Shown here: positions 7,802 through 21,744 of the stretch, piece by piece
Position numbering within the stretch: the first letter of the stretch is position 1
Layout of the letters: every line of letters begins with the position of its first letter
From: Cupriavidus necator
Lineage (GTDB): Bacteria > Pseudomonadota > Gammaproteobacteria > Burkholderiales > Burkholderiaceae
Reading direction: 5' to 3'
Length of the DNA: 32,000 bases
Assembly (NCBI RefSeq): GCF_016127575.1
Contig: NZ_CP066019.1
Span: 2,160,001-2,192,000, forward strand
Made by a program: the position numbers and the translations under genes
The notes under the pieces: generated by a model
Database searches by the model: none
The model's input: the letters and a program-made list of their open reading frames with translations, nothing else
What the model was told of the DNA's origin: nothing

Positions 7802-8821
7802 CTATCTGAAGGACCGGTAGCCTGTCGTCGAGTAGTCCGTGTAGAAGTCCGCCAGGCAATGCAGATTGAGCGCCCGGATCTCTTCAGTCATGAAGTCAAC
7901 AAAAACGCGGATGCGCGAGGGCAGGTGCTGGCGGCTGAGGTAACAGATGTAATGCCCGCGGTCGTCAGGCGCATACCGTCCCATGGCGATGACCAGTTCG
8001 CCGCGGGCGATGCGGTCGCAGGCCTGGTAGCCCGCCATCTGCGCGATGCCCAGCCCGTCGAGCACCGCCGCCAGCACCAGCTCAGGGTCATTGAACGTCA
8101 GCCTTGCGGCAGGCACAACCTTGCGCACATGCCCCTCGACCTTGAATTCCCATTCAAGGATGCGCGCGCCGGCGATGCGGGTGTTGATGCATTCGTGCCG
8201 GGCGATATCCTCCAGCGTCGACGGTAGTCCATGCCGCGCCGCGTAGGCAGGAGACGCGCACACAGCCATCTGCATCGGGATCAGCTGCTTCGCAACGATG
8301 CTTGAATCCTCGATGCGGCCATTGCGGAACGCGACGTCGATGTTCCCGGCCGCGAAGTCCGTTGGCCGGTCATCGAGCACCAGGTCCAGGGAAATGTCCG
8401 GATAAGCCGCCGAGAACTTCGACAGCAGCGGCGCCACCACCTTGCGGCCGAAGCCGGCCGTCGCGCTAATGCGAAGCAGGCCGCTTGGCGGTCCAAGGCG
8501 CAGTTCCAGCATGTCGTTCATGGCCTCGACGATATGCGCCACGCCCTGGTGGCAGTTCTCGAAGAAGCGCTCGCCCTCGCGGGTCAGTTGGGTGGTGCGC
8601 GTGGTGCGCAGGAACAGCCGGGTGCTCAGCTGCGTTTCCAGCTTCAGGACGTTGCGGCTGACCGCTGAGCGGCCGATGCCCAGCCGCTCGCCCGCCTTGG
8701 AGAAGCTGCCCTCGGTGGCGACCGCCATGAAGGCGATGATGCCGGCGTAGCTTGCCGCGAAACTGGCGGACAGCCCGTCCGCGCGATCCGGCGGGCCGGG
8801 GCGAAAGCCCCGCTGCGGCAT
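7802..8821 (-). CDS. LysR-family transcriptional regulator
   Basis: C-terminal 339 aa of the 702-aa ORF. ATG 8821 gives MPQRGF...YAGIIAFMAVATEGSFSKAGERLGIGRSAVSRNVLKLE (LysR HTH). An alternative ATG lies at 8896. The remaining upstream ORF is antisense to the GlxA gene and non-coding. Confidence 0.85.
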   Translation of the reverse strand: MPQRGFRPGPPDRADGLSASFAASYAGIIAFMAVATEGSFSKAGERLGIGRSAVSRNVLKLETQLSTRLFLRTTRTTQLTREGERFFENCHQGVAHIVEAMNDMLELRLGPPSGLLRISATAGFGRKVVAPLLSKFSAAYPDISLDLVLDDRPTDFAAGNIDVAFRNGRIEDSSIVAKQLIPMQMAVCASPAYAARHGLPSTLEDIARHECINTRIAGARILEWEFKVEGHVRKVVPAARLTFNDPELVLAAVLDGLGIAQMAGYQACDRIARGELVIAMGRYAPDDRGHYICYLSRQHLPSRIRVFVDFMTEEIRALNLHCLADFYTDYSTTGYRSFR

Positions 8822-9193
8822 ACCGGTTACGTCTCTATCCGCCCCCCCGCGGTTGACAGGGGACGTCAGGCGAACGTCTGGAACGACGATGTCCATGTCA
8901 TTGCCTTTCGGAGCGGCGCAACGAATGAGGATCCACGCTGTGCGGTGCACAACCATGGCATGATCGTAATGACCCGCCATGCCCGGGTAAATGACAGATG
9001 CCCCTGGATTTCTGCCATCCGGCCCGGCGCGAGCGGCGACAATGCAGATATGAAGCAGCGGAAGGCGCCGGTCCACAGGGCCTTCCGCTGCGATCCGTGG
9101 CGAAGGCGTCGCACTGCGCGTGCTTGCCGGCCACATGCCTTGCGCGGGATCGCGCCGGCGGCATAACATCCATCGACTTTCAAGATCCCTGCC

Positions 9194-10210
9194 ATGGTTC
9201 CCTCTCCGCCTGCGCCCTCTTCCCGGACACTTGACGACCAGCCACGCAATCTTCTGTTCGTGGCCTTCCCGGACATGAGCCTGCTTGATCTCACCGGACC
9301 GCAAACCGTGTTCTGGGCTGCCTCCCGGTTTGCACGCGAACGCGGCTTCGCCGGCTACCGGAGCTATCTGGCAAGCGAGCACGGCGGCCTGGTTGCCTCG
9401 GCCGAAGGCACCGCCGTGCAGGCCATGGCGCTCTCGGAAATCGATCTGCAGCACATCGATACGATCATCCTCCCGGGTGCCCCCGAGATGGTCAGGGTGC
9501 TCGACAGCGCCACCTCGCTGGTCGCCTGGCTGCAGCAGGCCGCCGGACAGGTACGCCGCGTTGCCTCGGTCTGCAGCGGGGCCTTCCTGCTTGCGCAAGC
9601 GGGCTTGCTTGACGGCAGGCGCGCTGCCACTCACTGGGCGATGCATGCGCAGTTCCGCGCGCGCTTTGCCGCGGTCGAACTGGACCGGGACGCCATTTTC
9701 GTCCGCCAGGACCGCATCTGGACCTCGGCCGGCGTGACCACCGGCATCGACATGGCGCTTGCGCTGGTCGAGGACGACTATGGCCACGATATCTCGCTGA
9801 GCGCGGCCAGGGAGCTGGCGGTCTTCATCAAGCGGCCGGGCACGCAGCCACAGATCAGCGAGATCCTGCTGGCGCAGAGCCGGCACGTGCCGCTGTTCGA
9901 GGCGCTCCATCTATGGATCATCGAAAACCTGTCGCGGGAAGGGCTGTCAGTGGAACAGCTCGCCGAACAGGTCGGAATGAGCCCCCGCAACTTTGCCCGG
10001 GTCTACAAGCAAAAGACCGGGCGCACCCCGGCCAAGGGGGTTGAGCATTTCCGGCTGGAAGCCGCACGCCGGCTGCTCCAGGACCTGCATCTGCCGGTGG
10101 AGCAGATCGCAAGGCAGTGCGGCTTCGGCAGCGAGGAACGGATGCGCCTTACGTTCCAGCGCAACCTGGGCTTCTCGCCCAGCGAGTATCGGTCGAAGGT
10201 GACCGGCTGA
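9194..10210 (+). CDS. GlxA-type regulator (DJ-1/PfpI-like domain fused to AraC-family HTH)
   Basis: 338 aa. N-terminal DJ-1/PfpI fold with a nucleophile-elbow Cys (VASVCSGAFLLAQAGLLDGRRAATHW). C-terminal AraC HTH (VEQLAEQVGMSPRNFARVYKQKTG...GFGSEERMRLTFQRNLGFSPSEYR). Confidence 0.9.
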   Translation: MVPSPPAPSSRTLDDQPRNLLFVAFPDMSLLDLTGPQTVFWAASRFARERGFAGYRSYLASEHGGLVASAEGTAVQAMALSEIDLQHIDTIILPGAPEMVRVLDSATSLVAWLQQAAGQVRRVASVCSGAFLLAQAGLLDGRRAATHWAMHAQFRARFAAVELDRDAIFVRQDRIWTSAGVTTGIDMALALVEDDYGHDISLSAARELAVFIKRPGTQPQISEILLAQSRHVPLFEALHLWIIENLSREGLSVEQLAEQVGMSPRNFARVYKQKTGRTPAKGVEHFRLEAARRLLQDLHLPVEQIARQCGFGSEERMRLTFQRNLGFSPSEYRSKVTG

Positions 10211-13499: not shown

Positions 13500-14873
13500 T
13501 TAGTCAGCAATGGTCTCCAGCGCTCTGCCACGGGTCTCGATGCCGAACCGGAACACGATGCCGGCCGCAGCAAGGAAACACAGCGCGCCAAGGCAGAACA
13601 CTCCAGCCTGGCCGGCAACGGGCAGAACCAGCCCCACCAACGCCGGACCCAGCAGCGATCCGATCCGCCCGACCGTCGACGCCATCCCGCAACCTGAAGC
13701 GCGCGCCCGCGTGGGATACAGTTCCGGCGTATAGGTATAGAGCACTGCCCACATGCCGAACATGAAGAACTGCATCATGCCGCCGGAAAGGAAGAGCGCC
13801 ATGGGGTCGGGACTGGACCCGGCGACCCTGCCGTAGATAAACACCATGCACGCCCCGCCCACCAGAGTCGCCACGCATGCTGGCTTGCGCCCCCAGCGCT
13901 CCACCGCCCATGCGGCCCAGAGAAAGCCGGGAATGCCGCCGATTGAGATATACACCGTGTACAGCACGGATTTGGTTACCCCGAGGCCCGATTGCTGCAG
14001 CAACGCGCCAATCCAGGTATTGAGGCCGTAGAACCCCAGCAGGGCGAAGAACCACAGGCCCCATACGGTCAAGGTCCGACTACGGTACTCGCGGGACCAG
14101 AGCACGCGCAGGCCCGATGTGGCCGGCTCCGCCGCCGCTGCCGCCGGCGTGACTTCCGGCAACGCATCGAGCTTCATCCGCCGCATGACCGATTGCTCGA
14201 TACGGTCGACAATGTCGGCCGCTTCGGCATGGCGTCCCTGCGACTCCAGCCAGCGCGGGGACTCGGGCACAAAGCGGCGGACTACGATCAGGAATAGCGC
14301 CGGGACCGCGCCGAGCAGGAACATCGTGCGCCAGGTGTAGGCGCTCAGCACGTAGTACGACATCAGCCCAGCGCAAATGAAGGCGATCGGCCAGTTTCCG
14401 TCCATCAGCGCCAGGTACTTGCCGCGCTGGCGCGCGGGAATGAATTCCGACATCAGCGTCTGCGCCAATGGCAGCTCCATGCCCATGCCGAGCCCGAGCA
14501 ACAGCCGATACGCACCCAGCTCCATGGGACCGTTCGCGGTGGAGCACAGATAGCTGCCCACGCCCCAGATGATCATGCTGACCTGGAAGACCGGCTTGCG
14601 GCCGAACTTGTCCGCCAGCACCCCGGAGCTGATCGCGCCAGTGGCCATGCCGACGAAGCTGGCGCTGCCGAGCATGCCGGCCTGCGCTGCGGTCAACCCG
14701 AATTCCGTCCGAATCGATCCCAGCAGATACGTCATCATGGCCAGGTCGAGGTTATCGAAAAAGAAGGCCAGCGCAATGATGGCAAACAGAAGGCGGTGAT
14801 ACCCGCATACGGGTAGCCGTTCCAGCCGGTCGCCGGTGCGCACGCGCATCAGCTCGAGAGAGGTAAGCTTCAT
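13500..14873 (-). CDS. MFS transporter (sugar-porter / metabolite:H+ symporter-like)
   Basis: ATG 14873, with GGAG 5 nt upstream. Gives a 457-aa protein with about 12 hydrophobic segments. MFS motifs ADKFGRKPVF and VPESPRWL. Confidence 0.9.
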   Translation of the reverse strand: MKLTSLELMRVRTGDRLERLPVCGYHRLLFAIIALAFFFDNLDLAMMTYLLGSIRTEFGLTAAQAGMLGSASFVGMATGAISSGVLADKFGRKPVFQVSMIIWGVGSYLCSTANGPMELGAYRLLLGLGMGMELPLAQTLMSEFIPARQRGKYLALMDGNWPIAFICAGLMSYYVLSAYTWRTMFLLGAVPALFLIVVRRFVPESPRWLESQGRHAEAADIVDRIEQSVMRRMKLDALPEVTPAAAAAEPATSGLRVLWSREYRSRTLTVWGLWFFALLGFYGLNTWIGALLQQSGLGVTKSVLYTVYISIGGIPGFLWAAWAVERWGRKPACVATLVGGACMVFIYGRVAGSSPDPMALFLSGGMMQFFMFGMWAVLYTYTPELYPTRARASGCGMASTVGRIGSLLGPALVGLVLPVAGQAGVFCLGALCFLAAAGIVFRFGIETRGRALETIAD

Positions 14874-14918
14874 CTTGTCTCCAGTAGTTCCAGTACCAGC
14901 GCTCTTGGGCACTGGCGG

Positions 14919-14950
14919 CAGGCGATAACGCATCGATGCGATATCGCCTG
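14919..14950. promoter_or_regulatory. 32-bp near-perfect palindrome upstream of the MFS transporter gene
   Basis: CAGGCGATAACGCATC|GATGCGATATCGCCTG; 15 of 16 arm positions are complementary (A:A mismatch at 14928/14941). It lies 46-77 nt upstream of ATG 14873. Confidence 0.45.
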
Positions 14951-15310
14951 CTACTGTCGCGTGGAGACGCAGCCGCGACGCGCGCGGGAACGCCAAGGTC
15001 TGTCTCGCAGGTGCCAAGCCAATTGCCGCGGGTCGCGTGGGCCCCAAAAAAAAAGGTTCATCGCCGATTTCCGGGGAAGGCCACTGGTCCGACGGCCGAG
15101 TTCGGCCAGCTTGAGTCGCTCAAGGAAATTTCACGACTGCCCGCTCCCGGACCGATAAGAGACAGTCGTCAATGATGCTGTGACCGTCGGCTCGTAGACC
15201 GTTGCGGCGGTCGCGAACAGAAGCCCTGTGTCGCAGAAGAGGCTTGGTCGTGGCTGCCTGTCCGTAGGCAGACACGTTCGACACCAGGGCGGCCGGGCAA
15301 GCGGCTCAGA

Positions 15311-16090
15311 TCACGCAGTCGGAACAGTTCCTCCGTCGATGACGTACTCAGTGCCGGTGATGGCGCTGGCGCGGCCAGAGACGAGGAAACCAATGAGTTC
15401 TGCCACTTCCCGGGGTGAGCATGGCCGGCCAAGAGGAATGCCGCCGAGCGAATCCATGATGACCTTGCGGGCGCCTTCCGCGTCGATGCCGCCTTGGCGG
15501 GCGATCTCGGCAACGAGACCTGCGGCGGCATCCGTCTCGACCCAGCCCGGTGAGACACGCACGACGCGAACGCCCTTCGGACTGACCTCCTTGGACAAGG
15601 CTTTGCTGTAGTTTGACAGGGCAGCCTTGGCGGCGGCATAGGCAATCGTCGCCTCCGGCAACGGTAATTGCCGCTGGATCGACGTGACGTGGATAATGAC
15701 GCCCGAACGCTGCTCGACCATCGAGGGCAACAGCGCGCGATCGATGCGCACTGCCGGGAATAGGTTCAGGTTCAATGCCTTGTTCCATTCATCGTCATCT
15801 AGCACGCTGAAGCCACCGGCCGGTGCAGATGAGCCGCCCACGACGTGCACGACTATATCGACGCCACCGAACCGCTTGAGCACGGCGTCGACAATGGCTT
15901 TACAGCCCTTGGCCGTCGTGATGTCCGCCCCGATGAACCGTTCTTCGGCAAGTTCATCGGGACGGGAACGCGCCGTCGTCAGAACGTTCGCACCTGCCTC
16001 GCAAAGGCGTGCGACGACGGCTTTGCCGACGCCTTTCGTTCCGCCCGTAACGAGCGCCCGAAGCCCCAGAAGTTCGGGTGCGGAGCTCAT
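15311..16090 (-). CDS. SDR-family oxidoreductase
   Basis: 259 aa. Motifs [10 protein letters not shown] (TGxxxGxG) and catalytic YAAAKAA (YxxxK). Its ATG overlaps the stop of the upstream NTF2-like gene (ATGA at 16087-16090). Confidence 0.9.
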
Positions 16091-16416
16091 TGGCGAATCT
16101 CCAGCGACGCAATCCTGCCGCCGGCCAGGACGAACGTGTAGGTCAGCTCGACCGGGCTGCCAGGGAATGTGCCCGTGAGTCGTGCGTGCATCGTCACAGT
16201 GGCGCCGTTCTGGGAGACGTCCAACGGCTCAATGCTGTACTGGTACCTGGTTTTGCTGTCCTTCTTCCAGGCCTGGATTGCTTCCAGCCCCTTGATCGTG
16301 CGGCCTTCGTCCCGCACAACGGCATCGGCGGTAAAGCAGTTCGAGAGAGGGGCGGTGTCCGTGACGGTTTCCGCGAGCAGATAGGCATCCAGTGGCGGAG
16401 GCAGCATCATGTTCAT
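16087..16416 (-). CDS. NTF2/SnoaL-like small protein
   Basis: 109 aa; GAGG 9 nt upstream of ATG 16416. The size and the pattern [23 protein letters not shown]...[10 protein letters not shown] fit SnoaL-like polyketide-cyclase-fold proteins. Translationally coupled to the SDR gene. Confidence 0.7.
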
Positions 16417-16506
16417 CGGGGTTTACCTCAACGTGAAGGTTTGCATGCCCCAATCATGGCGCTACAGTTACCGTATCGCAAGAACGCACAAAAAAGTAAG
16501 TAACCC

Positions 16507-16845
16507 TTGGCTAACCGAAAAAACTACACCCCCGCGACTGCCGCAATCGATGTCGAAGCCGCATTCAAGCTGCTGGAAGGCCGCTGGAAGCTGGTGATTT
16601 TGTTTCACCTTTTCGGTGGTCAGGTACAGCGCTTTTCGGACCTCGAGAGACTGATCCCCGGCATCACACAGAAGATGCTTGCCCAGCAGCTACGCCGCCT
16701 CGAAGCGGACGGCATCGTGACACGTACGGTCTATCATCAGGTGCCGCCGAAGGTGGACTACCGCCTGACTGATTGGGGCCAGGCGTTGTGCCCGGCACTG
16801 GATGCGATCCTGACATGGGCGGAGCACCGTGAAGACTTTCCGTAG
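16507..16845 (+). CDS. HxlR-family transcriptional regulator
   Basis: 112 aa. Signature LLEGRWKLVILFHLFGGQVQRFSDLERLIPGITQKMLAQQLRRLEADGIVTRTVY. The only in-frame start is TTG at 16507. Divergent from the NTF2-SDR pair. Confidence 0.85.
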   Translation: MANRKNYTPATAAIDVEAAFKLLEGRWKLVILFHLFGGQVQRFSDLERLIPGITQKMLAQQLRRLEADGIVTRTVYHQVPPKVDYRLTDWGQALCPALDAILTWAEHREDFP

Positions 16846-17156
16846 GCTGCGACGAGCTTGCGTGCGTGACGCTAGCTGTCATCCAGAACTCCAATTCGCA
16901 AAGTCGTCGACGTGGTCTCATCCGCGATGGTCTCATGTCGCGCTGGAACCTGACGGTCGTCCATCTCATTTGAGAGGCAGCACTGGGGCGAACTGAGACG
17001 GCCGACCGCGCTGTGAAATCGTGTCTCCGATTTGTTCGACACTTGCAGTGCAGCATGCAATGAAGGCATCAAATCAGAATATGCGGATATCCTAATGTTC
17101 ACCTCTCCGCTCACAGGAAGGCGTAACAGTTCGCTCGGGCATCGTATAGCGCGTGA

Positions 17157-17297
17157 TGCCGGCACCCGCTGAACACAAGCGTCGTTGAGGGCATCAACAA
17201 CACCATCAAAGTCATCAAGCGCCGAGCCTACGGCTACCGTGTCGAGGACTACTTCTTCCTGAAGATCAAGGCGGCGTTCCCCGGAATTCCTCGTTGA
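17157..17297 (+). pseudogene. ISL3-family transposase, C-terminal fragment only (IS scar)
   Basis: Reads CRHPLNTSVVEGINNTIKVIKRRAYGYRVEDYFFLKIKAAFPGIPR* with TGA at 17295-17297, a typical ISL3 transposase C-terminus. An in-frame stop lies just upstream (17154-17156) and no remainder of the gene is present. Absent from the ORF track. Confidence 0.75.
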
Positions 17298-17300
17298 ACC

Positions 17301-17329
17301 AAAAAGAAGAGGTGCCGGAGCACCTCTTC
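17301..17329 (-). terminator. Rho-independent terminator of the RidA/PurA-like/flavoprotein operon
   Basis: On the minus strand: GAAGAGGTGC-TCCG-GCACCTCTTC (perfect 10-bp stem, 4-nt loop) followed by TTTTT. It starts 20 nt after the stop at 17350. Confidence 0.75.
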
Positions 17330-17349: not shown

Positions 17350-17976
17350 TCACCTGGAAGCAAACCTGTGGGGATCGAATGCCTCCGGCGGCAAGCCGGA
17401 CAGCGTGGCACCGGACTGGAAGGGATAGCGCAGGTACGGCGCTTTCGGCTGACCCGGTGGCGAGTACTGTCCATCGGCAAGAATGCGTTTCTTCGCGCTC
17501 ATCTCACGAATCTCGCAGCGATAGGCAACGATCTGGCTGGCTGCGCCGTCCTCGATCGGCGAGTAGTCTTTCTCGGGCCGGAACTTGTCCAGCGCCTGGT
17601 ACTGGTGCGCACGCACCTCGTCGGCACTGTCACGCAGCGTGACTTCGCATCGCGCGATGGCGCTGTAGTACTCGAGGCTTGTATTCTGTCCCTTCGGTGC
17701 CTTCAGCAAGGCCACGGGCCGGTCGACCTCGATCGTGACCAGGGGATTCGACCGAATCGCCGAGGCCAGCTTTCCGAATCTGGAACTGTGGATCAGGAAG
17801 GCGTCGCCGGTGAAGGTAAAGCTCTGCGCGGTAATGTAGGGATAGGGTGTGTCATGCACCGCGACCCGGCAGATCAGCTCGTTCCGGAGGAAGGCCTCGA
17901 TGGCCGGCCAGTCGGTCCAGGCCAGGTCGGTCCGGCGCATTTCGTTGTGAAGGTAGGCGGGTGTCGTGGTCGTCAT
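17350..17976 (-). CDS. Pyridoxamine 5'-phosphate oxidase-like (NimA/Pyridox_ox_2-type) split-barrel flavoprotein
   Basis: ATG 17976 overlaps the upstream stop (ATGA at 17973-17976). The 208-aa protein starts MTTTTPAYLHNEMRRTDLAWTDWPAIEAFLRNELICRVAVHDTPYPYITAQSFTF, the pattern of the PNPOx-like family. The upstream part of the 241-aa ORF is non-coding. Confidence 0.75.
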   Translation of the reverse strand: MTTTTPAYLHNEMRRTDLAWTDWPAIEAFLRNELICRVAVHDTPYPYITAQSFTFTGDAFLIHSSRFGKLASAIRSNPLVTIEVDRPVALLKAPKGQNTSLEYYSAIARCEVTLRDSADEVRAHQYQALDKFRPEKDYSPIEDGAASQIVAYRCEIREMSAKKRILADGQYSPPGQPKAPYLRYPFQSGATLSGLPPEAFDPHRFASR

Positions 17977-19349
17977 GGTCTCGTCTGCTGATGGTTCTGA
18001 AAATGCCGCATCTGCGCGCGTCCGGGCCCCAAACCAATTCCGCGCAAGGGCCGGCCAATGGCATCCGCCAGCCATTCAAGCAGGGCTTCCAGTTGCGGAG
18101 GCAGGGGGGAAGTGGCATCCCTCGGGATGGTGTCTTCGGCAAAGGCAGGAAACCGCACCACGCGCTGGCCACCGGTGTCAGTGGCGCCGGCAACGACCGG
18201 GATGCAGCGCTCGCGCGTGCGGTCAAAGGCCGCCAGGCTGTCGCACTTGTTCAGATACACCTCGTCAACCCCGCATTGCCGTACAGCAAGCCGGAGCTGC
18301 GCCACGTCAAGCAGCCCTACCCGCCGTGGCCGGCCGGTTCCGGTGCCGTACTCATTCGACAGCATCCGGATCGCCACGCCGATGGAGAATTCGTCCGCTT
18401 CGGCGAGCAAAGCCAGCGGATCCAGCCTGGCCGCCTCGTCGGCCCCGCCGCGGCCCTCCCGCGCCGCATCGGCGCAATAGGCCTCGGATCGCCCTGCGCC
18501 AAGTTCGGTTGGCAACGGCCCGCTGCCGACCCGGGATACGATCGCCTTGGCGACGCCGATGGTCTTGCGGTGATACTTGCATGGGAGGTCGCCACCCACA
18601 TACGCGTAAGAAGGCATCGTATGGCTGGACGTGACCCAAGGCTGAACGCCCTGCACCACATCGAGCATGACGGACTGCGCGCCCTCGAAGAGCACATTGG
18701 CACCCGCTTCGACCCGCCGCAAGAGCGCAACCGGATCGTCCGTCACGAACGGCTCAACCACCTTCCACGCCTGGCGCATCGCGTTCACCACGGCCACAAG
18801 ACCCTCGCCGTCGCCGTCGCGCTGCACGGCCAGCCGCATCATCTGCTCGAACACCCGGCTCCCGTCAACCACCAGGTCGCGGAGCTGAAACGAAGATCGC
18901 TCCCCTCCCCGCACGCGGGTCGCGAGATCCGCATAACACGGGCCGATGCCGTTGCCGGTGGTGCCAATCTGGGCGCCATCGTGGCGATCGGCCAGGACAT
19001 GGAGAGGCTGGACGACCGGACACCTGTCACTGATCGTCAACCGCCCGCCCAGATCGATCCCCTGCGCCGCGAGCATCTCGATTTCGGCTGCCAGTTGCTG
19101 CAACCCGATCACGCAGCCTGAGCCGATGTAGAGCGCAACGCCGGGATGCAGCACCCCGGAGGGGACCTGCCGTAGCCGCAAGGTTCCGTCAGGCGTGGCG
19201 ATGGTATGCCCGGCGTTCGCGCCGCCATTGAAGCGCGCAATCACCTCGTACTCGCCGGCGAGGTGATCGACGACCCGCGCCTTCCCCTCATCGCCATATT
19301 GCAGTCCGACCAGGACGTCGGCGTACCCCGCCTTTTTCGCGGTGCCCAT
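17973..19349 (-). CDS. Divergent adenylosuccinate synthetase (PurA)-fold GTP-dependent ligase, paralogue-like
   Basis: 458 aa. PurA motifs present: QYGDEGKAR (P-loop), GGANAGHT, GTTGNGIGP, FEGAQS, VTSS, SRVGSGPLPTEL, GTGTGRPRR, NKCD, GLGPGR. It deviates from canonical PurA at several substrate-site positions. It also carries an insertion of about 36 aa (see findings). Confidence 0.85.
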   Translation of the reverse strand: MGTAKKAGYADVLVGLQYGDEGKARVVDHLAGEYEVIARFNGGANAGHTIATPDGTLRLRQVPSGVLHPGVALYIGSGCVIGLQQLAAEIEMLAAQGIDLGGRLTISDRCPVVQPLHVLADRHDGAQIGTTGNGIGPCYADLATRVRGGERSSFQLRDLVVDGSRVFEQMMRLAVQRDGDGEGLVAVVNAMRQAWKVVEPFVTDDPVALLRRVEAGANVLFEGAQSVMLDVVQGVQPWVTSSHTMPSYAYVGGDLPCKYHRKTIGVAKAIVSRVGSGPLPTELGAGRSEAYCADAAREGRGGADEAARLDPLALLAEADEFSIGVAIRMLSNEYGTGTGRPRRVGLLDVAQLRLAVRQCGVDEVYLNKCDSLAAFDRTRERCIPVVAGATDTGGQRVVRFPAFAEDTIPRDATSPLPPQLEALLEWLADAIGRPLRGIGLGPGRAQMRHFQNHQQTRP

Positions 19350-19352
19350 CGC

Positions 19353-19817
19353 CTACGCGTCCAGCGCAAATGTCGCCTCGATCTCCACCGGGGCACCGAA
19401 GGGAAGGCTCGCCACGCCGAGCGCCAGGCGGGCATGGCGCCCTCTCTCTTCAAAGATCCGGTTCAGCAATTCCGACGCTGCATTGATCACCAGCGGCGCA
19501 TCATGGAAACCCGGCTCCGCCGCAACATAGCCTCCAACGCGGACGATGCCCCGGATTCGTTCGAAATCCCCATCGGTCGCTGCCGCCACCCAACCCAGCA
19601 GGTTGGCCAGGCACAACCGCGCGGCCTGCTGTGCCGCTTCGACGGTGACTGCGCCCGGGACCTTGCCGACGAAGACCGGCTTGCCGTCCTGAAGCGGCAA
19701 CTGCCCCGATACCGTCAGCAAACCATGGTGCAGGGTGTAAGGGACATAGTGCGCCTTGGGAAATTCCGTGGCAGGCAAGACAATGCCGGCAGCCTGGATA
19801 CGATCCATCACTGACAT
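19353..19817 (-). CDS. RidA/YjgF-family (reactive intermediate/imine deaminase) protein
   Basis: ATG 19817, with GAGGAG 5 nt upstream. The 154-aa protein contains YVPYTLHHGLLTVSGQLP and HARLALGVASLPFGAPVEIEATFAL. Its stop lies 3 nt before the PurA-like ATG. Confidence 0.85.
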   Translation of the reverse strand: MSVMDRIQAAGIVLPATEFPKAHYVPYTLHHGLLTVSGQLPLQDGKPVFVGKVPGAVTVEAAQQAARLCLANLLGWVAAATDGDFERIRGIVRVGGYVAAEPGFHDAPLVINAASELLNRIFEERGRHARLALGVASLPFGAPVEIEATFALDA

Positions 19818-19963: not shown

Positions 19964-20749
19964 CTAGTCGCCAGCCATGTCCCTGAAGTATTCGGTCGGC
20001 GTCATGCCCAGCGCACGCCTGAACATGGCACTGAAGGCACTTGGACTCTCATAGCCAAGTTGCAGCGCGATGTCCGTGACATGGCAGCCCTCGGCAAGCA
20101 GGCGTACCGCGGCCATCAGCCGGGCCTGCTGCTTCCAGCGGCTGTAGGTCATGCCCGTTTCTTCGGGAAACAGGCGGATGATGGTGCGCTCGCTGGCGCC
20201 GACCGAACGGCTCCACGCCGCCACGGAAGTCTCATCGGCAGGGTCCTCGAGGATCTTTGCGCAGATCTTGCTCAGCCGAGGGTCCTTGGGCATCGGCAGA
20301 TGCAGCGGCACCACGGAAAGCGGGCGCAGTTCCTGCAGCAGAAGCTGCACCACCAGGCCGTCGCGGCCGCTTTCGTCATAGTCCAGCGGCATGCGCACGG
20401 CGGCCGATATCAGTTCGCGCAGCAGCGGCGGCACAGCGACGACACAACAGTTGCGCAACTCATCAGGAATGGCATCAGCGCGAATATAGACCGTGCGCAT
20501 TTCCACATCGCCGCAGGCCTGCATGGCGTGCTCGACGTTGCACGGAACCCAGACCGCGCGTTGAGGCGGCACCACCCAGGAGCCGAAATCGGTGGTCACC
20601 AGGATAGCGCCCACATAGGCGTAGATCAGCTGGCCACGCGGGTGGGAATGCGCGGAGATATAGAAGCCGTCCTTCAGCTTGCGCGCCATCCCGCCCACTC
20701 GCCGGTCTATCGCCTGGTAGTCATCCCGGTTTTCGCTCTTTCCAAACAT
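19964..20749 (-). CDS. AraC-family transcriptional regulator with N-terminal cupin sensor domain
   Basis: ATG 20749 gives a 261-aa protein. Cupin-like HSHPRGQLIYAYVGAILVTT; C-terminal AraC HTH (VAAWSRSVGASERTIIRLFPEETGMTYSRWKQQARL...LGYESPSAFSAMFRRALGMTPTEYF). Confidence 0.9.
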   Translation of the reverse strand: MFGKSENRDDYQAIDRRVGGMARKLKDGFYISAHSHPRGQLIYAYVGAILVTTDFGSWVVPPQRAVWVPCNVEHAMQACGDVEMRTVYIRADAIPDELRNCCVVAVPPLLRELISAAVRMPLDYDESGRDGLVVQLLLQELRPLSVVPLHLPMPKDPRLSKICAKILEDPADETSVAAWSRSVGASERTIIRLFPEETGMTYSRWKQQARLMAAVRLLAEGCHVTDIALQLGYESPSAFSAMFRRALGMTPTEYFRDMAGD

Positions 20750-20886: not shown

Positions 20887-21744
20887 ATGTCAGTGTATCG
20901 AAACTTCAATCAGGAAGAACTGGACAAGCAGTACAACGTCAGGGCGGGAATTCCCGGGTTCCAGGACATCTTCAAGGGATGGGAGAACACCAGCGCCGCA
21001 TTCCGTCGCGCCCATCCCGTAAAGGAGAACCTTGCGTATGGCCTGGACGCCAAGCAGGCGCTGGACTTCTTTCCCGCAGCCACCAGGAGCCGTCCGTTGC
21101 TCGTCTTCATTCATGGCGGCTACTGGCAATCGCTGGACAAGTCGGACTTCAGCCACGTTGCCGCCCCGTACCTGAAGCACGACATCAACGTCGCCGTGGT
21201 GAACTACCGGCTCGCCCCGGAGGTCGGGATGGCCGAGATCGTCCGCGATAATCGCGACGCCGTGGCATGGCTCTACGGCAATGCGGCCGAACTGGGGTTC
21301 GATGCGAACCGCATCTATGTATCCGGCCACTCAGCCGGCGGACATCTCACCGCCACGCTGGCAGGAACCGATTGGGAGTCGTTCGGCCTCCCCGCTGACG
21401 TGCTCAAGGGCGGATGCGCGATCAGCGGCCTGTATGACCTGGAACCTATCCGCCTGTGCTATCTCAACAAGGTGGTCGGCCTGACCGAGGCGGATGTCGC
21501 CAGCTACAGCCCGATTCATCATGTTCCACGAGTGAAATTGCCCATGATCCTGACCGCTGGCGGGGATGAGTCGCCGGAGTACCACCGGCTGCAGCGCGAA
21601 TACCAGGCGCTGCTGGGCGAATGCGGCTTTGACGTGCAGGTGGTGGTGCAGGAGCGCGGCCATCATTTCGACGCGGTCGACCTGCTGGGCGATGCCGATG
21701 GCGCCCTGGCCGCGTCGGTGTTGCGCATGATCGAGCGCGCCTGA
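20887..21744 (+). CDS. Alpha/beta hydrolase (esterase / arylformamidase-like)
   Basis: ATG 20887, with GGAG 9 nt upstream. The 285-aa protein has the oxyanion motif FIHGGYW and the nucleophile elbow GHSAGGH, plus a C-terminal His (ERGHHFD). Confidence 0.85.
   Translation: MSVYRNFNQEELDKQYNVRAGIPGFQDIFKGWENTSAAFRRAHPVKENLAYGLDAKQALDFFPAATRSRPLLVFIHGGYWQSLDKSDFSHVAAPYLKHDINVAVVNYRLAPEVGMAEIVRDNRDAVAWLYGNAAELGFDANRIYVSGHSAGGHLTATLAGTDWESFGLPADVLKGGCAISGLYDLEPIRLCYLNKVVGLTEADVASYSPIHHVPRVKLPMILTAGGDESPEYHRLQREYQALLGECGFDVQVVVQERGHHFDAVDLLGDADGALAASVLRMIERA

What the first reader, a model, noticed from the sequence alone, without database searches (positions are those of the whole stretch)
17973..19349. 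PurA paralogue keeps the GTP and catalytic motifs but has altered substrate-site residues and a ~36-aa insertion
I aligned it by eye to E. coli PurA, recalled from memory, so residue-level statements need re-checking.
Retained motifs:
- GDEGK P-loop with the catalytic Asp (aa 19-23)
- NAGH with the catalytic His (aa 45-48)
- GTTG.GIGP (aa 129-137)
- FEGAQ (aa 221-225)
- VTSS (aa 239-242)
- SRVGSGPLPTEL (aa 272-283)
- a fully canonical NKCD guanine-specificity box (aa 367-370, nt 18240-18251)
- GPGR near the C-terminus
Differences sit where PurA contacts IMP and aspartate:
- GKGK becomes GKAR
- YQGG becomes FNGG
- GRGIGP becomes GNGIGP
- GATTGRRRR becomes GTGTGRPRR
- the 12-residue link between PTEL and NEFG is replaced by 48 residues (aa 284-331, nt 18357-18500) rich in Ala/Arg/Glu
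This pattern, with chemistry conserved and acceptor/amine site changed, is what a neofunctionalised paralogue would show. The phage PurZ enzyme is a known precedent for repurposing this fold.
Basis: partly seen in the sequence, partly recalled or inferred. Interest (0 to 1): 0.7.

Follow-up and report, generated by a model that had tools for sequence, protein, structure and literature searches.

The report
Second, divergent adenylosuccinate synthetase in a conserved cassette
This is a real second copy of the enzyme that makes the AMP precursor adenylosuccinate; it comes from a distinct deep lineage and sits in a conserved, regulated gene cassette, so it is probably a conditional back-up or drug-insensitive version, although an enzyme with a new substrate is not excluded.

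Summary
It is the PurA-family gene on Cupriavidus necator H16 chromosome 2. It has the full PurA fold but scores below all NCBIfam PurA cut-offs.

All catalytic, IMP, GTP and first-shell aspartate residues are conserved. Most of the listed "differences" are normal PurA variation (R304P, Q34N, K18R) or lineage signatures (Y11, A17, N131, S225). CPR and Bdellovibrionota homologues in housekeeping contexts share those signatures. The 48-residue helical insert is homologous to one in PurA sequences that pass the curated cut-off. Only T300G stands out: it occurs in 0 of 90 canonical representatives.

What is new is the context:
- The gene is translationally coupled in a Rid / PurA-like / Nim-like flavoprotein operon, with an AraC regulator, a hydrolase and an MFS transporter. 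This cassette is conserved in 29 loci.
- The sister clade sits inside an uncharacterised SbnA/SbnB-AurF gene cluster in Pandoraea and actinomycetes.

Best reading (about 0.4): a horizontally acquired, conditionally expressed adenylosuccinate synthetase that bypasses an antimetabolite. Main rival (about 0.3): altered amine specificity.

The parts
17973..19349 (-). PurA-like GTP-dependent ligase (458 aa), the finding itself. It is 100% identical to the C. necator H16 chromosome 2 protein.
18357..18500 (-). 48-residue helical insert (aa 284-331) immediately before the aspartate loop EYGTGTGRPRR. It is predicted as four confident helices.
   Evidence: Homologous to the insert in canonical-scoring archaeal PurAs.
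19353..19817 (-). Rid/YjgF-family protein (154 aa), first gene of the operon. Its stop lies 3 nt before the PurA-like start. It retains the Arg equivalent to RidA R105.
   Evidence: Co-located with the PurA-like gene in all 29 type A loci.
17350..17976 (-). Pyridox_ox_2 / Nim-like split-barrel flavoprotein (208 aa). Its ATG overlaps the PurA-like stop codon (ATGA). It is the most conserved protein of the cassette (67-91% identity).
17306..17329 (-). Terminator-like hairpin (10-bp stem followed by a T run) 21 nt after the flavoprotein stop. It probably marks the end of the three-gene operon.
   Evidence: It lies inside the block conserved with other Cupriavidus.
19964..20749 (-). AraC-family regulator with a cupin ligand-binding domain (261 aa in public gene calls), directly upstream in the same orientation.
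20887..21744 (+). Divergently transcribed alpha/beta hydrolase (hormone-sensitive lipase family, HGGYW motif). Kynurenine formamidase is among its nearest solved relatives.
13500..15047 (-). MFS transporter of the cassette, nearest to aromatic-acid/H+ symporters. The exact start is uncertain, because homologues are about 457 aa. In H16 a 2.3-kb insertion separates it from the operon.

Best explanation
The gene encodes a catalytically competent, GTP-dependent adenylosuccinate-synthetase-type ligase. It belongs to a deep, separate PurA lineage marked by a long helical linker and the residues Y11/A17/F33-N34/N131/S225/S271. Burkholderiales acquired it horizontally, in addition to their canonical purA.

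It most likely still carries out the standard reaction. It phosphorylates O6 of IMP with GTP, using the Asp13 and His41 equivalents. The alpha-amine of L-aspartate, or a very close analogue, then displaces the phosphate.

In C. necator it is the middle gene of a translationally coupled three-gene operon: Rid, the PurA-like gene, then a Nim-like flavoprotein. The operon lies next to an AraC-type regulator, a hydrolase and an MFS transporter. My reading is that it is a conditionally expressed bypass copy. It would keep AMP synthesis going when an aspartate-like or IMP-site antimetabolite (alanosine or hadacidin type) blocks the housekeeping enzyme. The neighbouring genes would take up or process that compound. 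The T300G change in the aspartate pocket is the likely discriminating feature.

The sister clade sits inside an L-2,3-diaminopropionate/N-oxygenase gene cluster. There it would serve as the producer's self-resistance copy.

What is shown:
- family, fold and residue conservation
- clade structure
- synteny
- paralogy in a relative

What is inferred:
- retained substrates
- conditional expression
- the resistance role
For: **Enzyme competence**
- Full PF00709 match and PurA fold.
- All catalytic, IMP, GTP and first-shell aspartate residues are invariant or nearly so across the 88 clade proteins.

**Lineage residues are compatible with ordinary PurA function**
- The lineage signature residues and the insert are shared with CPR, Bdellovibrionota and Oligoflexia homologues.
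- In 10 CPR loci the homologue sits next to malic enzyme.
- Peribacteria have small genomes with essentially complete nucleotide synthesis pathways (PMC4736985). This suggests the lineage performs the normal PurA step there.

**It is an extra copy**
- The canonical purA and the paralogue are on one Trinickia contig.

**The cassette is conserved**
- It is present in 29 loci from Cupriavidus, Paraburkholderia, Herminiimonas, Pandoraea, Caballeronia, Trinickia, Pseudomonas typographi and an alphaproteobacterial MAG.
- The genes overlap or abut and are followed by a terminator-like hairpin.

**Sister clade in a gene cluster**
- The sister clade (59/60 bootstraps) is embedded in an SbnA-SbnB-PurA-like-AurF-carbamoyltransferase-ThrC-like-ThiO-like-flavin reductase cluster in 26 loci.
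- L-Dap is the precursor of alanosine (10.1101/763607). From my own knowledge, the target of alanosine's active metabolite is adenylosuccinate synthetase.

**Works without partners**
- Stand-alone copies carrying G300 exist in Catellatospora and Acrocarpospora. The enzyme therefore works without pathway partners.

**Unusual pocket residue and faster evolution**
- G300 occurs in 0 of 90 canonical representatives.
- The paralogue evolves about twice as fast as canonical PurA between the same genera (74-77% identity against 88-90%). That fits occasional use.
- The flavoprotein is related to Nim resistance proteins.
Against: - No activity, expression or fitness data were found.
- The MFS transporter is closest to uptake-type aromatic-acid symporters, not drug exporters. 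The cassette looks as much catabolic as defensive.
- Tight translational coupling to Rid and to a very highly conserved flavoprotein suggests a stoichiometric pathway rather than mere co-regulation.
- In E. coli, T300A raises Km(Asp) about 30-fold (Gorrell et al. 2002, recalled from memory; the paper could not be retrieved). G300 could therefore mean a different amine substrate rather than inhibitor exclusion.
- The product of the sister gene cluster is unknown, and the published alanosine cluster contains no PurA homologue.
- I could not show that CPR genomes lack a canonical PurA.
- I did not directly retrieve C. necator's own canonical purA.
Confidence: 0.4

Rival explanations
1. Neofunctionalised ligase. 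The enzyme still activates IMP (or a close purine nucleotide) with GTP, but couples it to an amine other than L-aspartate. Candidates are an L-Dap-derived, N-oxygenated or bulkier alpha-amino acid. In the cassette, the Nim-like flavoprotein would oxidise the new N6-C bond and Rid would hydrolyse the resulting imine. Together they would form a nucleotide-carried deamination or detoxification route for a compound that the hydrolase releases and the MFS transporter imports. In the sister gene cluster the same chemistry would be biosynthetic or protective.
For: - T300G, and N242H, are specific to the cassette/BGC clade. Glycine at position 300 occurs in no canonical representative.
- R131, which is R or K in 80 of 90 canonical representatives, is N here.
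- The protein fails the PurA equivalog cut-offs.
- Genes overlap with Rid and the flavoprotein here, and with SbnB and AurF in Pandoraea.
- Rid keeps the imine-deaminase arginine.
- The transporter is uptake-type and the hydrolase is formamidase-related.
- The AraC-plus-transporter architecture is typical of substrate-induced catabolism.
- Deeper members of the same superclade have lost His41 or Gln224, so the lineage does explore new chemistry.
Against: - First-shell aspartate ligands (T301/S, R303, R305, V273) are all kept.
- N131 and the other signature residues are shared with homologues in housekeeping contexts.
- Stand-alone G300 copies exist without any partner genes.
- It is hard to name one substrate that fits both a biosynthetic cluster and a catabolic-looking cassette.
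Confidence: 0.3
2. Plain redundant isozyme. A horizontally acquired second adenylosuccinate synthetase with ordinary properties, whose neighbours are incidental and which adds only dosage or slightly different regulation.
For: - The active site is conserved.
- Databases simply name it adenylosuccinate synthetase.
- Its GC3 is slightly lower than that of surrounding genes, consistent with foreign origin.
- Its evolution is relaxed relative to canonical PurA.
Against: - The same six-gene arrangement, with overlapping or abutting genes, is kept across at least eight genera in three proteobacterial classes, while the PurA-like protein has diverged to 49-57% identity. Incidental neighbours would not persist that long.
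- The sister clade is fixed inside a different conserved cluster.
- G300 is fixed in the clade and absent elsewhere.
Confidence: 0.17
3. A PurZ-like enzyme for modified-nucleotide (2-aminoadenine-type) synthesis, or an anti-phage function.
For: The fold is shared with PurZ.
Against: - NF038379 (PurZ) scores 98 bits against a cut-off of 300.
- Structural similarity to PurZ/DgsS is far lower than to PurA.
- The guanine-specific NKxD box is retained.
- No phage genes lie nearby and there are no PADLOC hits.
Confidence: 0.02

Closest known systems
Canonical adenylosuccinate synthetase PurA (EC 6.3.4.4; PF00709; NCBIfam NF002223/TIGR00184; e.g. E. coli 1ADE, B. thailandensis 3UE9)
   Same: - Same fold (TM 0.75-0.88).
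- Same P-loop Asp/Lys, the same Asn38/His41, Gln224, IMP-phosphate threonines and Arg143.
- Same Val273, Thr301/Arg303/Arg305 aspartate loop and (N/T)KxD guanine box.
   Different: - About 28-31% identity to solved structures.
- Below all curated equivalog cut-offs.
- Separate clade with 60/60 support.
- Y11, A17, N131, S225, S271 and especially G300.
- 48-residue linker against the usual 12.
- Not in the hflKC-hisZ-purA neighbourhood, but in an AraC-controlled cassette.
- Evolves about twice as fast.
Long-linker PurA-like proteins of CPR (Peregrinibacteria/Peribacteria, Gracilibacteria), Bdellovibrionota and Oligoflexia (loci L055-L088)
   Same: - 43-48% identity.
- Same insert and the same Y11/A17/F33-N34/N131/S225/S271/G414 signature.
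- All catalytic residues present.
   Different: - They have V or T at position 300 in most cases, K at 130 and variable residue 242.
- No Rid, flavoprotein, AraC or SbnA/B neighbours.
- Housekeeping-type context: malic enzyme lies downstream in 10 loci.
PurA-like gene of the SbnA-SbnB-AurF-carbamoyltransferase cluster in Pandoraea, Kitasatospora, Actinoplanes and Micromonospora (e.g. P0072, P0047)
   Same: - Sister clade (59/60 bootstraps).
- About 50% identity.
- Identical active-site signature, including G300 and H242.
- Same 48-residue insert.
   Different: - Embedded in a biosynthetic-looking cluster instead of the Rid/flavoprotein cassette.
- Several Pandoraea species carry both types.
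Phage PurZ / PurZ0 (succino-2-amino-deoxyadenylate synthase)
   Same: PurA-superfamily fold and the same phosphoryl-transfer-then-aspartate-addition chemistry.
   Different: - PurZ is about 340-365 aa, uses dGMP and usually ATP/dATP, and is phage-encoded.
- Here the PurZ model scores 98 against 300, the match covers only the N-terminal half, TM is lower, and the GTP box is kept.
Pathway-dedicated PurA homologues in nucleoside-antibiotic clusters (ForA of formycin, ToyG of toyocamycin; from my own knowledge and 10.1101/728154 listed)
   Same: A PurA paralogue placed in a specialised-metabolite gene cluster, acting beside the housekeeping enzyme.
   Different: - Those clusters also encode PurB/PurC/PurH-like or deazapurine enzymes and build nucleoside analogues.
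- Neither the cassette nor the SbnA/B cluster encodes such partners.
- I did not compare sequences directly.

Membership tests
Adenylosuccinate synthetase (PurA, EC 6.3.4.4) | Full-length PF00709 domain and the PurA three-dimensional fold | tested here: met
   PF00709 at 316 bits, residues 12-447. AF2 pLDDT 90.6. Foldseek TM 0.75-0.88 to PurA structures.
Adenylosuccinate synthetase (PurA, EC 6.3.4.4) | Catalytic residues: P-loop GDEGK with Asp13 and Lys16, Asn38, His41 and Gln224 | tested here: met
   All are present in the window protein and in every one of the 88 clade proteins for which the position is covered.
Adenylosuccinate synthetase (PurA, EC 6.3.4.4) | IMP-binding residues Thr128, Thr129, Arg143 (from the partner subunit), Thr239 and Val273 | tested here: met
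   Conserved. The roles of these residues are taken from the E. coli literature, recalled from memory.
Adenylosuccinate synthetase (PurA, EC 6.3.4.4) | Aspartate-site residues Arg131, Thr300, Thr301, Arg303 and Arg305 | tested here: inconclusive
   T301, R303 and R305 are kept. R131 is N (2/90 canonical) and T300 is G (0/90 canonical).
Adenylosuccinate synthetase (PurA, EC 6.3.4.4) | Guanine-specificity elements: (N/T)KxD and the C-terminal (S/G)xGP | tested here: met
   NKCD 367-370 and GLGP 439-442.
Adenylosuccinate synthetase (PurA, EC 6.3.4.4) | Score above the curated equivalog cut-off (NCBIfam NF002223, TIGR00184) | tested here: not met
   281.7 bits against 402, and 251.5 against 395.55. 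The match is split at the insert.
Adenylosuccinate synthetase (PurA, EC 6.3.4.4) | Makes adenylosuccinate from IMP, L-aspartate and GTP | not testable with these tools
   Needs an enzyme assay or purA complementation.
PurZ (succino-amino-deoxyadenylate synthase) | Score above the NF038379 cut-off, a short ~350-aa architecture and a phage context | tested here: not met
   98.3 bits against 300. The protein is 458 aa. The context is chromosomal with no phage genes. The structural match is poorer.
Target-duplication (self-)resistance enzymes | A second, divergent copy in addition to the housekeeping target | tested here: met
   Shown for Trinickia acidisoli. For C. necator itself it is inferred, not retrieved.
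Target-duplication (self-)resistance enzymes | Location inside, or linked to, a biosynthetic gene cluster for the inhibitor | tested here: inconclusive
   The sister clade sits in a conserved SbnA/SbnB-AurF cluster in 26 loci. The window copy does not, and the cluster product is unknown.
Target-duplication (self-)resistance enzymes | Reduced inhibitor sensitivity, and a protective phenotype | not testable with these tools
   Needs Ki measurements and genetics.

The most novel reading that the evidence does not exclude
The G300 clade is not an ordinary adenylosuccinate synthetase. It couples IMP to a non-aspartate amine, such as an L-Dap-derived, N-oxygenated or otherwise unusual amino acid. 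With the co-translated Nim-like flavoprotein and Rid it would form a new nucleotide-carried oxidative deamination or detoxification route that does not depend on PurB. The sister cluster in Pandoraea and actinomycetes would make the matching, still undiscovered antimetabolite.
Probability: 0.2. Interest if true: 0.8.

Novelty: new variant of a known kind. Interest (0 to 1): 0.5.

Why it matters
Adenylosuccinate synthetase is the target of hadacidin, hydantocidin and the alanosine metabolite. A PurA variant fixed in two settings suggests two things:
- an unrecognised class of AMP-synthesis antimetabolites produced by Pandoraea and actinomycetes
- a ready-made resistance or processing cassette in soil Burkholderiales

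The two settings are an uncharacterised L-Dap/N-oxygenase gene cluster and an AraC-controlled cassette spread across Burkholderiales.

The finding also shows that public annotation as "adenylosuccinate synthetase" merges at least three ecologically different uses of one deep PurA lineage. For C. necator H16, a widely engineered chassis, it flags a second IMP-to-AMP enzyme that metabolic models currently treat as generic.

Tried and rejected
**Literature**
- Searches for a described Cupriavidus PurA paralogue, a PurA gene in the alanosine cluster, PurA self-resistance, or the SbnA/SbnB-AurF-PurA cluster found nothing relevant.
- Supplements of two C. necator omics/model papers hold no gene-level data for this locus.
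- The E. coli Thr300/Val273 mutagenesis paper could not be retrieved. Its numbers are therefore quoted from memory.

**Rejected or weakened ideas**
- Anti-phage defence: no PADLOC hit for any operon protein.
- PurZ-like function: rejected on score, structure and the NKxD box.
- The carbamoyltransferase in the sister cluster as a second aspartate-using resistance copy: rejected, because it is ornithine/N-acetylornithine-type, not ATCase-type.
- A linked adenylosuccinate lyase: a partial PurB query found none within 10 kb in any of the 88 loci.
- The MFS transporter as a drug exporter: its nearest families are uptake symporters.
- The insertion as a marker of neofunctionalisation: rejected.

**Limits**
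- The tree is only neighbour-joining with 60 bootstraps. Deep branching within the superclade is unresolved.
Full report
**1. The observation**

The ORF at 17973-19349 on the minus strand encodes 458 aa.
- It matches Pfam PF00709 end to end (E 3.7e-94).
- Its closest solved relatives are PurA enzymes at E 1e-55 to 1e-36. PurZ and PurZ0 match only weakly and only over the N-terminal part.
- An AlphaFold model built on 63 homologues is confident (pLDDT 90.6, pTM 0.90). It superposes on PurA structures with TM 0.75-0.88, but on PurZ/DgsS with clearly lower scores.
- The protein is 100% identical to a Cupriavidus necator protein. The locus is on C. necator H16 chromosome 2 (AM260480.1, about 2.2525-2.2539 Mb).
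- The segment between the PTEL strand and the aspartate loop is 48 residues, against 12 in E. coli. It is predicted as four confident helices.

**2. How unusual are the residue differences?**

I took E. coli PurA from MG1655. I aligned it with 148 full-length sequences that span the paralogue clade and the canonical family.

In E. coli numbering, these residues are all conserved in the window protein: D13, K16, N38, H41, T128, T129, R143, Q224, T239, V273, T301, R303, R305, K331 and D333.

| Residue | Count out of 90 |
|---|---|
| P304 | 76 (E. coli's Arg is the minority state) |
| F33 | 41 |
| N34 | 19 |
| G414 | 21 |
| R18 | 7 |
| Y11 | 3 |
| A17 | 5 |
| N131 | 2 (R or K in 80) |
| S225 | 2 |
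| S271 | 7 |
| G300 | 0 |

So P304, F33, N34, G414 and R18 are ordinary variation. The truly uncommon residues are Y11, A17, N131, S225, S271 and above all G300.

NCBIfam agrees that the protein is atypical. It scores 281.7 bits against a 402-bit cut-off for NF002223 and 251.5 against 395.55 for TIGR00184. The PurZ model gives only 98 bits against 300.

**3. The lineage**

An exhaustive HMMER search of 1.84 billion cluster representatives found 14,384 family members. They form a continuum of long-linker sequences above the canonical ones.

A neighbour-joining tree with 60 bootstraps gives:
- 60/60 support for a superclade of 59 long-linker, non-canonical representatives
- 59/60 for a 17-member clade containing the window protein
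- 51/60 for the Burkholderiales subclade around the window protein

Some deep superclade members have lost His41 or carry Q224N. This lineage therefore includes real departures from PurA chemistry, but the window's clade is not among them.

The insert does not mark neofunctionalisation.
- Eight long-linker sequences fall on the canonical side of the tree and pass the NF002223 cut-off at 431-596 bits. Two are from Woesearchaeota and Nanoarchaeota.
- Their insert is visibly homologous to the window's, with the shared pattern G..RSE.YC ... LL.S.D.F..G.ALRML..EYG.

**4. Context**

This is where the finding becomes interesting.

In the window:
- The PurA-like start lies 3 nt after the stop of a Rid/YjgF gene.
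- Its stop overlaps the ATG of a Pyridox_ox_2 flavoprotein gene (ATGA).
- A strong terminator-like hairpin follows.
- Upstream is an AraC/cupin regulator. Divergent from that is an alpha/beta hydrolase, and downstream is an MFS transporter.

A scan of one genome per species returned at least 529 relatives. I classified 80 of those loci, 7 earlier loci and the window itself, 88 proteins in all, by tblastn of the neighbouring proteins.

| Type | Context | Loci | Taxa |
|---|---|---|---|
| A | hydrolase / AraC - Rid - PurA-like - flavoprotein - MFS | 29 | Cupriavidus, Paraburkholderia, Herminiimonas, Pandoraea, Caballeronia, Trinickia, Pseudomonas typographi, one alphaproteobacterial MAG |
| B | SbnA - SbnB - PurA-like - AurF-like - (N-acetyl)ornithine-carbamoyltransferase-like - ThrC-like - ThiO-like - flavin reductase | 26 | Pandoraea, Kitasatospora, Actinoplanes, Micromonospora |
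| C | neither | 33 | mostly CPR (Peregrinibacteria, Peribacteria, Gracilibacteria, Microgenomates), Bdellovibrionota, Oligoflexia; also Catellatospora and Acrocarpospora |

- In type B, SbnA and SbnB pass their equivalog cut-offs.
- Several Pandoraea species carry both type A and type B.
- In ten CPR loci of type C the downstream gene is malic enzyme.
- Peribacteria are reported to have small genomes with essentially complete nucleotide synthesis (PMC4736985).

**5. What distinguishes the types?**

A residue census over the 88 proteins shows that all three types share the whole signature: Y11, A17, F33, N34, A37, N131, S225, S271, P304, G414 and the 45-50-residue linker. All catalytic and substrate ligands are shared too.

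Among the key positions, only three are specific to types A and B:
- T300G. Type C has V in 18, T in 7 and G in 5, and those G counts include the stand-alone actinomycete copies.
- N242H.
- G rather than K at position 130.

From memory of Gorrell et al. (J Biol Chem 2002; not retrievable): Thr300 packs against bound aspartate, T300A raises Km(Asp) about 30-fold, and T300V is nearly neutral. If that transfers here, the type C enzymes look like ordinary aspartate users. The A/B clade would then have a deliberately loosened or enlarged aspartate pocket.

**6. The neighbours**

- Rid keeps the arginine equivalent to RidA R105, which is needed for imine hydrolysis.
- The flavoprotein has no named NCBIfam family. 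Its only PDB relatives are an uncharacterised protein (2HTI) and, with a profile search, a 5-nitroimidazole resistance (Nim) protein (E 1e-5).
- The flavoprotein is the most conserved protein of the cassette, at 67-91% identity where the PurA-like protein is 49-80%.
- The hydrolase belongs to the hormone-sensitive-lipase family. It has an HGGYW motif, and kynurenine formamidase is its third-best solved relative.
- The MFS transporter is nearest to aromatic-acid/H+ symporters, which are uptake systems, and scores below that family's cut-off.
- No operon protein matches a known anti-phage system.

**7. Paralogy and rate**

In Trinickia acidisoli both copies lie on the same 4.07-Mb contig:
- The canonical 448-aa purA is at 2.16 Mb in the classical hflK-hflC-DUF2065-hisZ-purA neighbourhood, the same neighbourhood as in E. 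coli.
- The paralogue cassette is at 1.12 Mb.

Between Trinickia and Paraburkholderia the canonical enzymes are 88-90% identical, but the paralogues only 74-77%.

Cassette genes have GC3 of 0.70-0.78, against 0.79-0.89 for most neighbours. That is compatible with foreign origin.

**8. Interpretation**

So are the IMP site and the first-shell aspartate site, and the insert is an old, shared module.

Best-supported picture: a functional adenylosuccinate-synthetase-type enzyme from an alternative PurA lineage. That lineage probably serves as the ordinary PurA in some genome-reduced bacteria. It has been recruited twice: into a Dap-based biosynthetic cluster and into an AraC-controlled cassette.

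I favour a bypass or target-replacement role against an aspartate-like inhibitor of AMP synthesis (confidence about 0.4). Three points support it:
- The same enzyme type appears in a producer-like cluster, in a regulated cassette and as stand-alone copies.
- The cluster starts from L-Dap, which is also the precursor of alanosine.
- The only clade-specific active-site change sits in the aspartate pocket.

The main rival is altered amine specificity, with the flavoprotein and Rid cleaving the new N6 adduct oxidatively (about 0.3). The tight coupling, the uptake-type transporter and the expected cost of T300G for aspartate binding support it. Simple redundancy (about 0.17) is hard to reconcile with the conserved synteny. 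A PurZ-like or defence role is effectively excluded.

**9. Novelty and interest**

The protein family is known, and databases already call this gene adenylosuccinate synthetase. I found no description of any of the following in the searchable literature:
- the clade
- its G300 signature
- the Rid/Nim-like/AraC cassette
- the SbnA/B-AurF cluster association

I therefore rate it a new variant of a known kind, of moderate interest (0.5). It is a concrete, testable lead to an unrecognised AMP-synthesis antimetabolite and its resistance or processing system. It is not a demonstrated new enzyme.

Noticed in passing
window 15048-17300: C. necator H16 carries a 2.3-kb insertion between the flavoprotein gene and the MFS gene. 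It contains an SDR oxidoreductase (15311-16090), a SnoaL-like protein (16087-16416) and about 0.9 kb with no convincing gene. In three other Cupriavidus genomes the MFS gene follows the flavoprotein gene within about 35 bp.
   Followed up: partly
L007 5867-14658; L003 283-10628; 24 further loci: An uncharacterised conserved gene cluster: SbnA-SbnB-PurA-like-AurF-like-carbamoyltransferase-ThrC-like-ThiO-like-flavin reductase. It is shared between Pandoraea (about 21 species) and actinomycetes (Kitasatospora, Actinoplanes, Micromonospora). The Pandoraea version has an adjacent LuxR-type regulator. In Kitasatospora (L003) the cluster also carries an adenylating enzyme. I found no literature on it.
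   Followed up: partly
P0158, P0161, P0164, P0169, P0191: Deeper members of the long-linker PurA-like superclade lack the catalytic His41 (G, A or R instead), and several have Q224N. These are better candidates for truly neofunctionalised or non-catalytic PurA-like proteins than the window gene.
   Followed up: no
window 17350-17976 and homologues: The Pyridox_ox_2/Nim-like flavoprotein is far more conserved across genera (67-91% identity, with long invariant blocks such as ALLKAPKGQNTSLEYYS and AKKRILADGQYSPPG) than the PurA-like protein or Rid. It may be the functional core of the cassette. It has no characterised close relative.
   Followed up: partly
L060, L062, L064, L065, L069, L073, L075, L078, L079, L085: In Peregrinibacteria, Peribacteria, Gracilibacteria and other Patescibacteria loci, the long-linker PurA-like gene is followed by a malic enzyme gene. 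Other conserved neighbours have no Pfam match.
   Followed up: partly
window 7802-9910 (-) and 9194-10210 (+): The 702-aa ORF has LysR domains only in its C-terminal half (aa 393-677). It overlaps an AraC/DJ-1-type regulator ORF on the other strand. The long ORF is probably over-extended in this high-GC sequence, and the real LysR gene is about 310 aa.
   Followed up: no
(source names): NCBI names differ by evidence type. Canonical copies are called "adenylosuccinate synthase", which is also the description of the NCBIfam PurA equivalog models. Most paralogues are called "adenylosuccinate synthetase". The wording is a quick, though imperfect, flag for non-equivalog PurA-family genes in RefSeq.
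   Followed up: no
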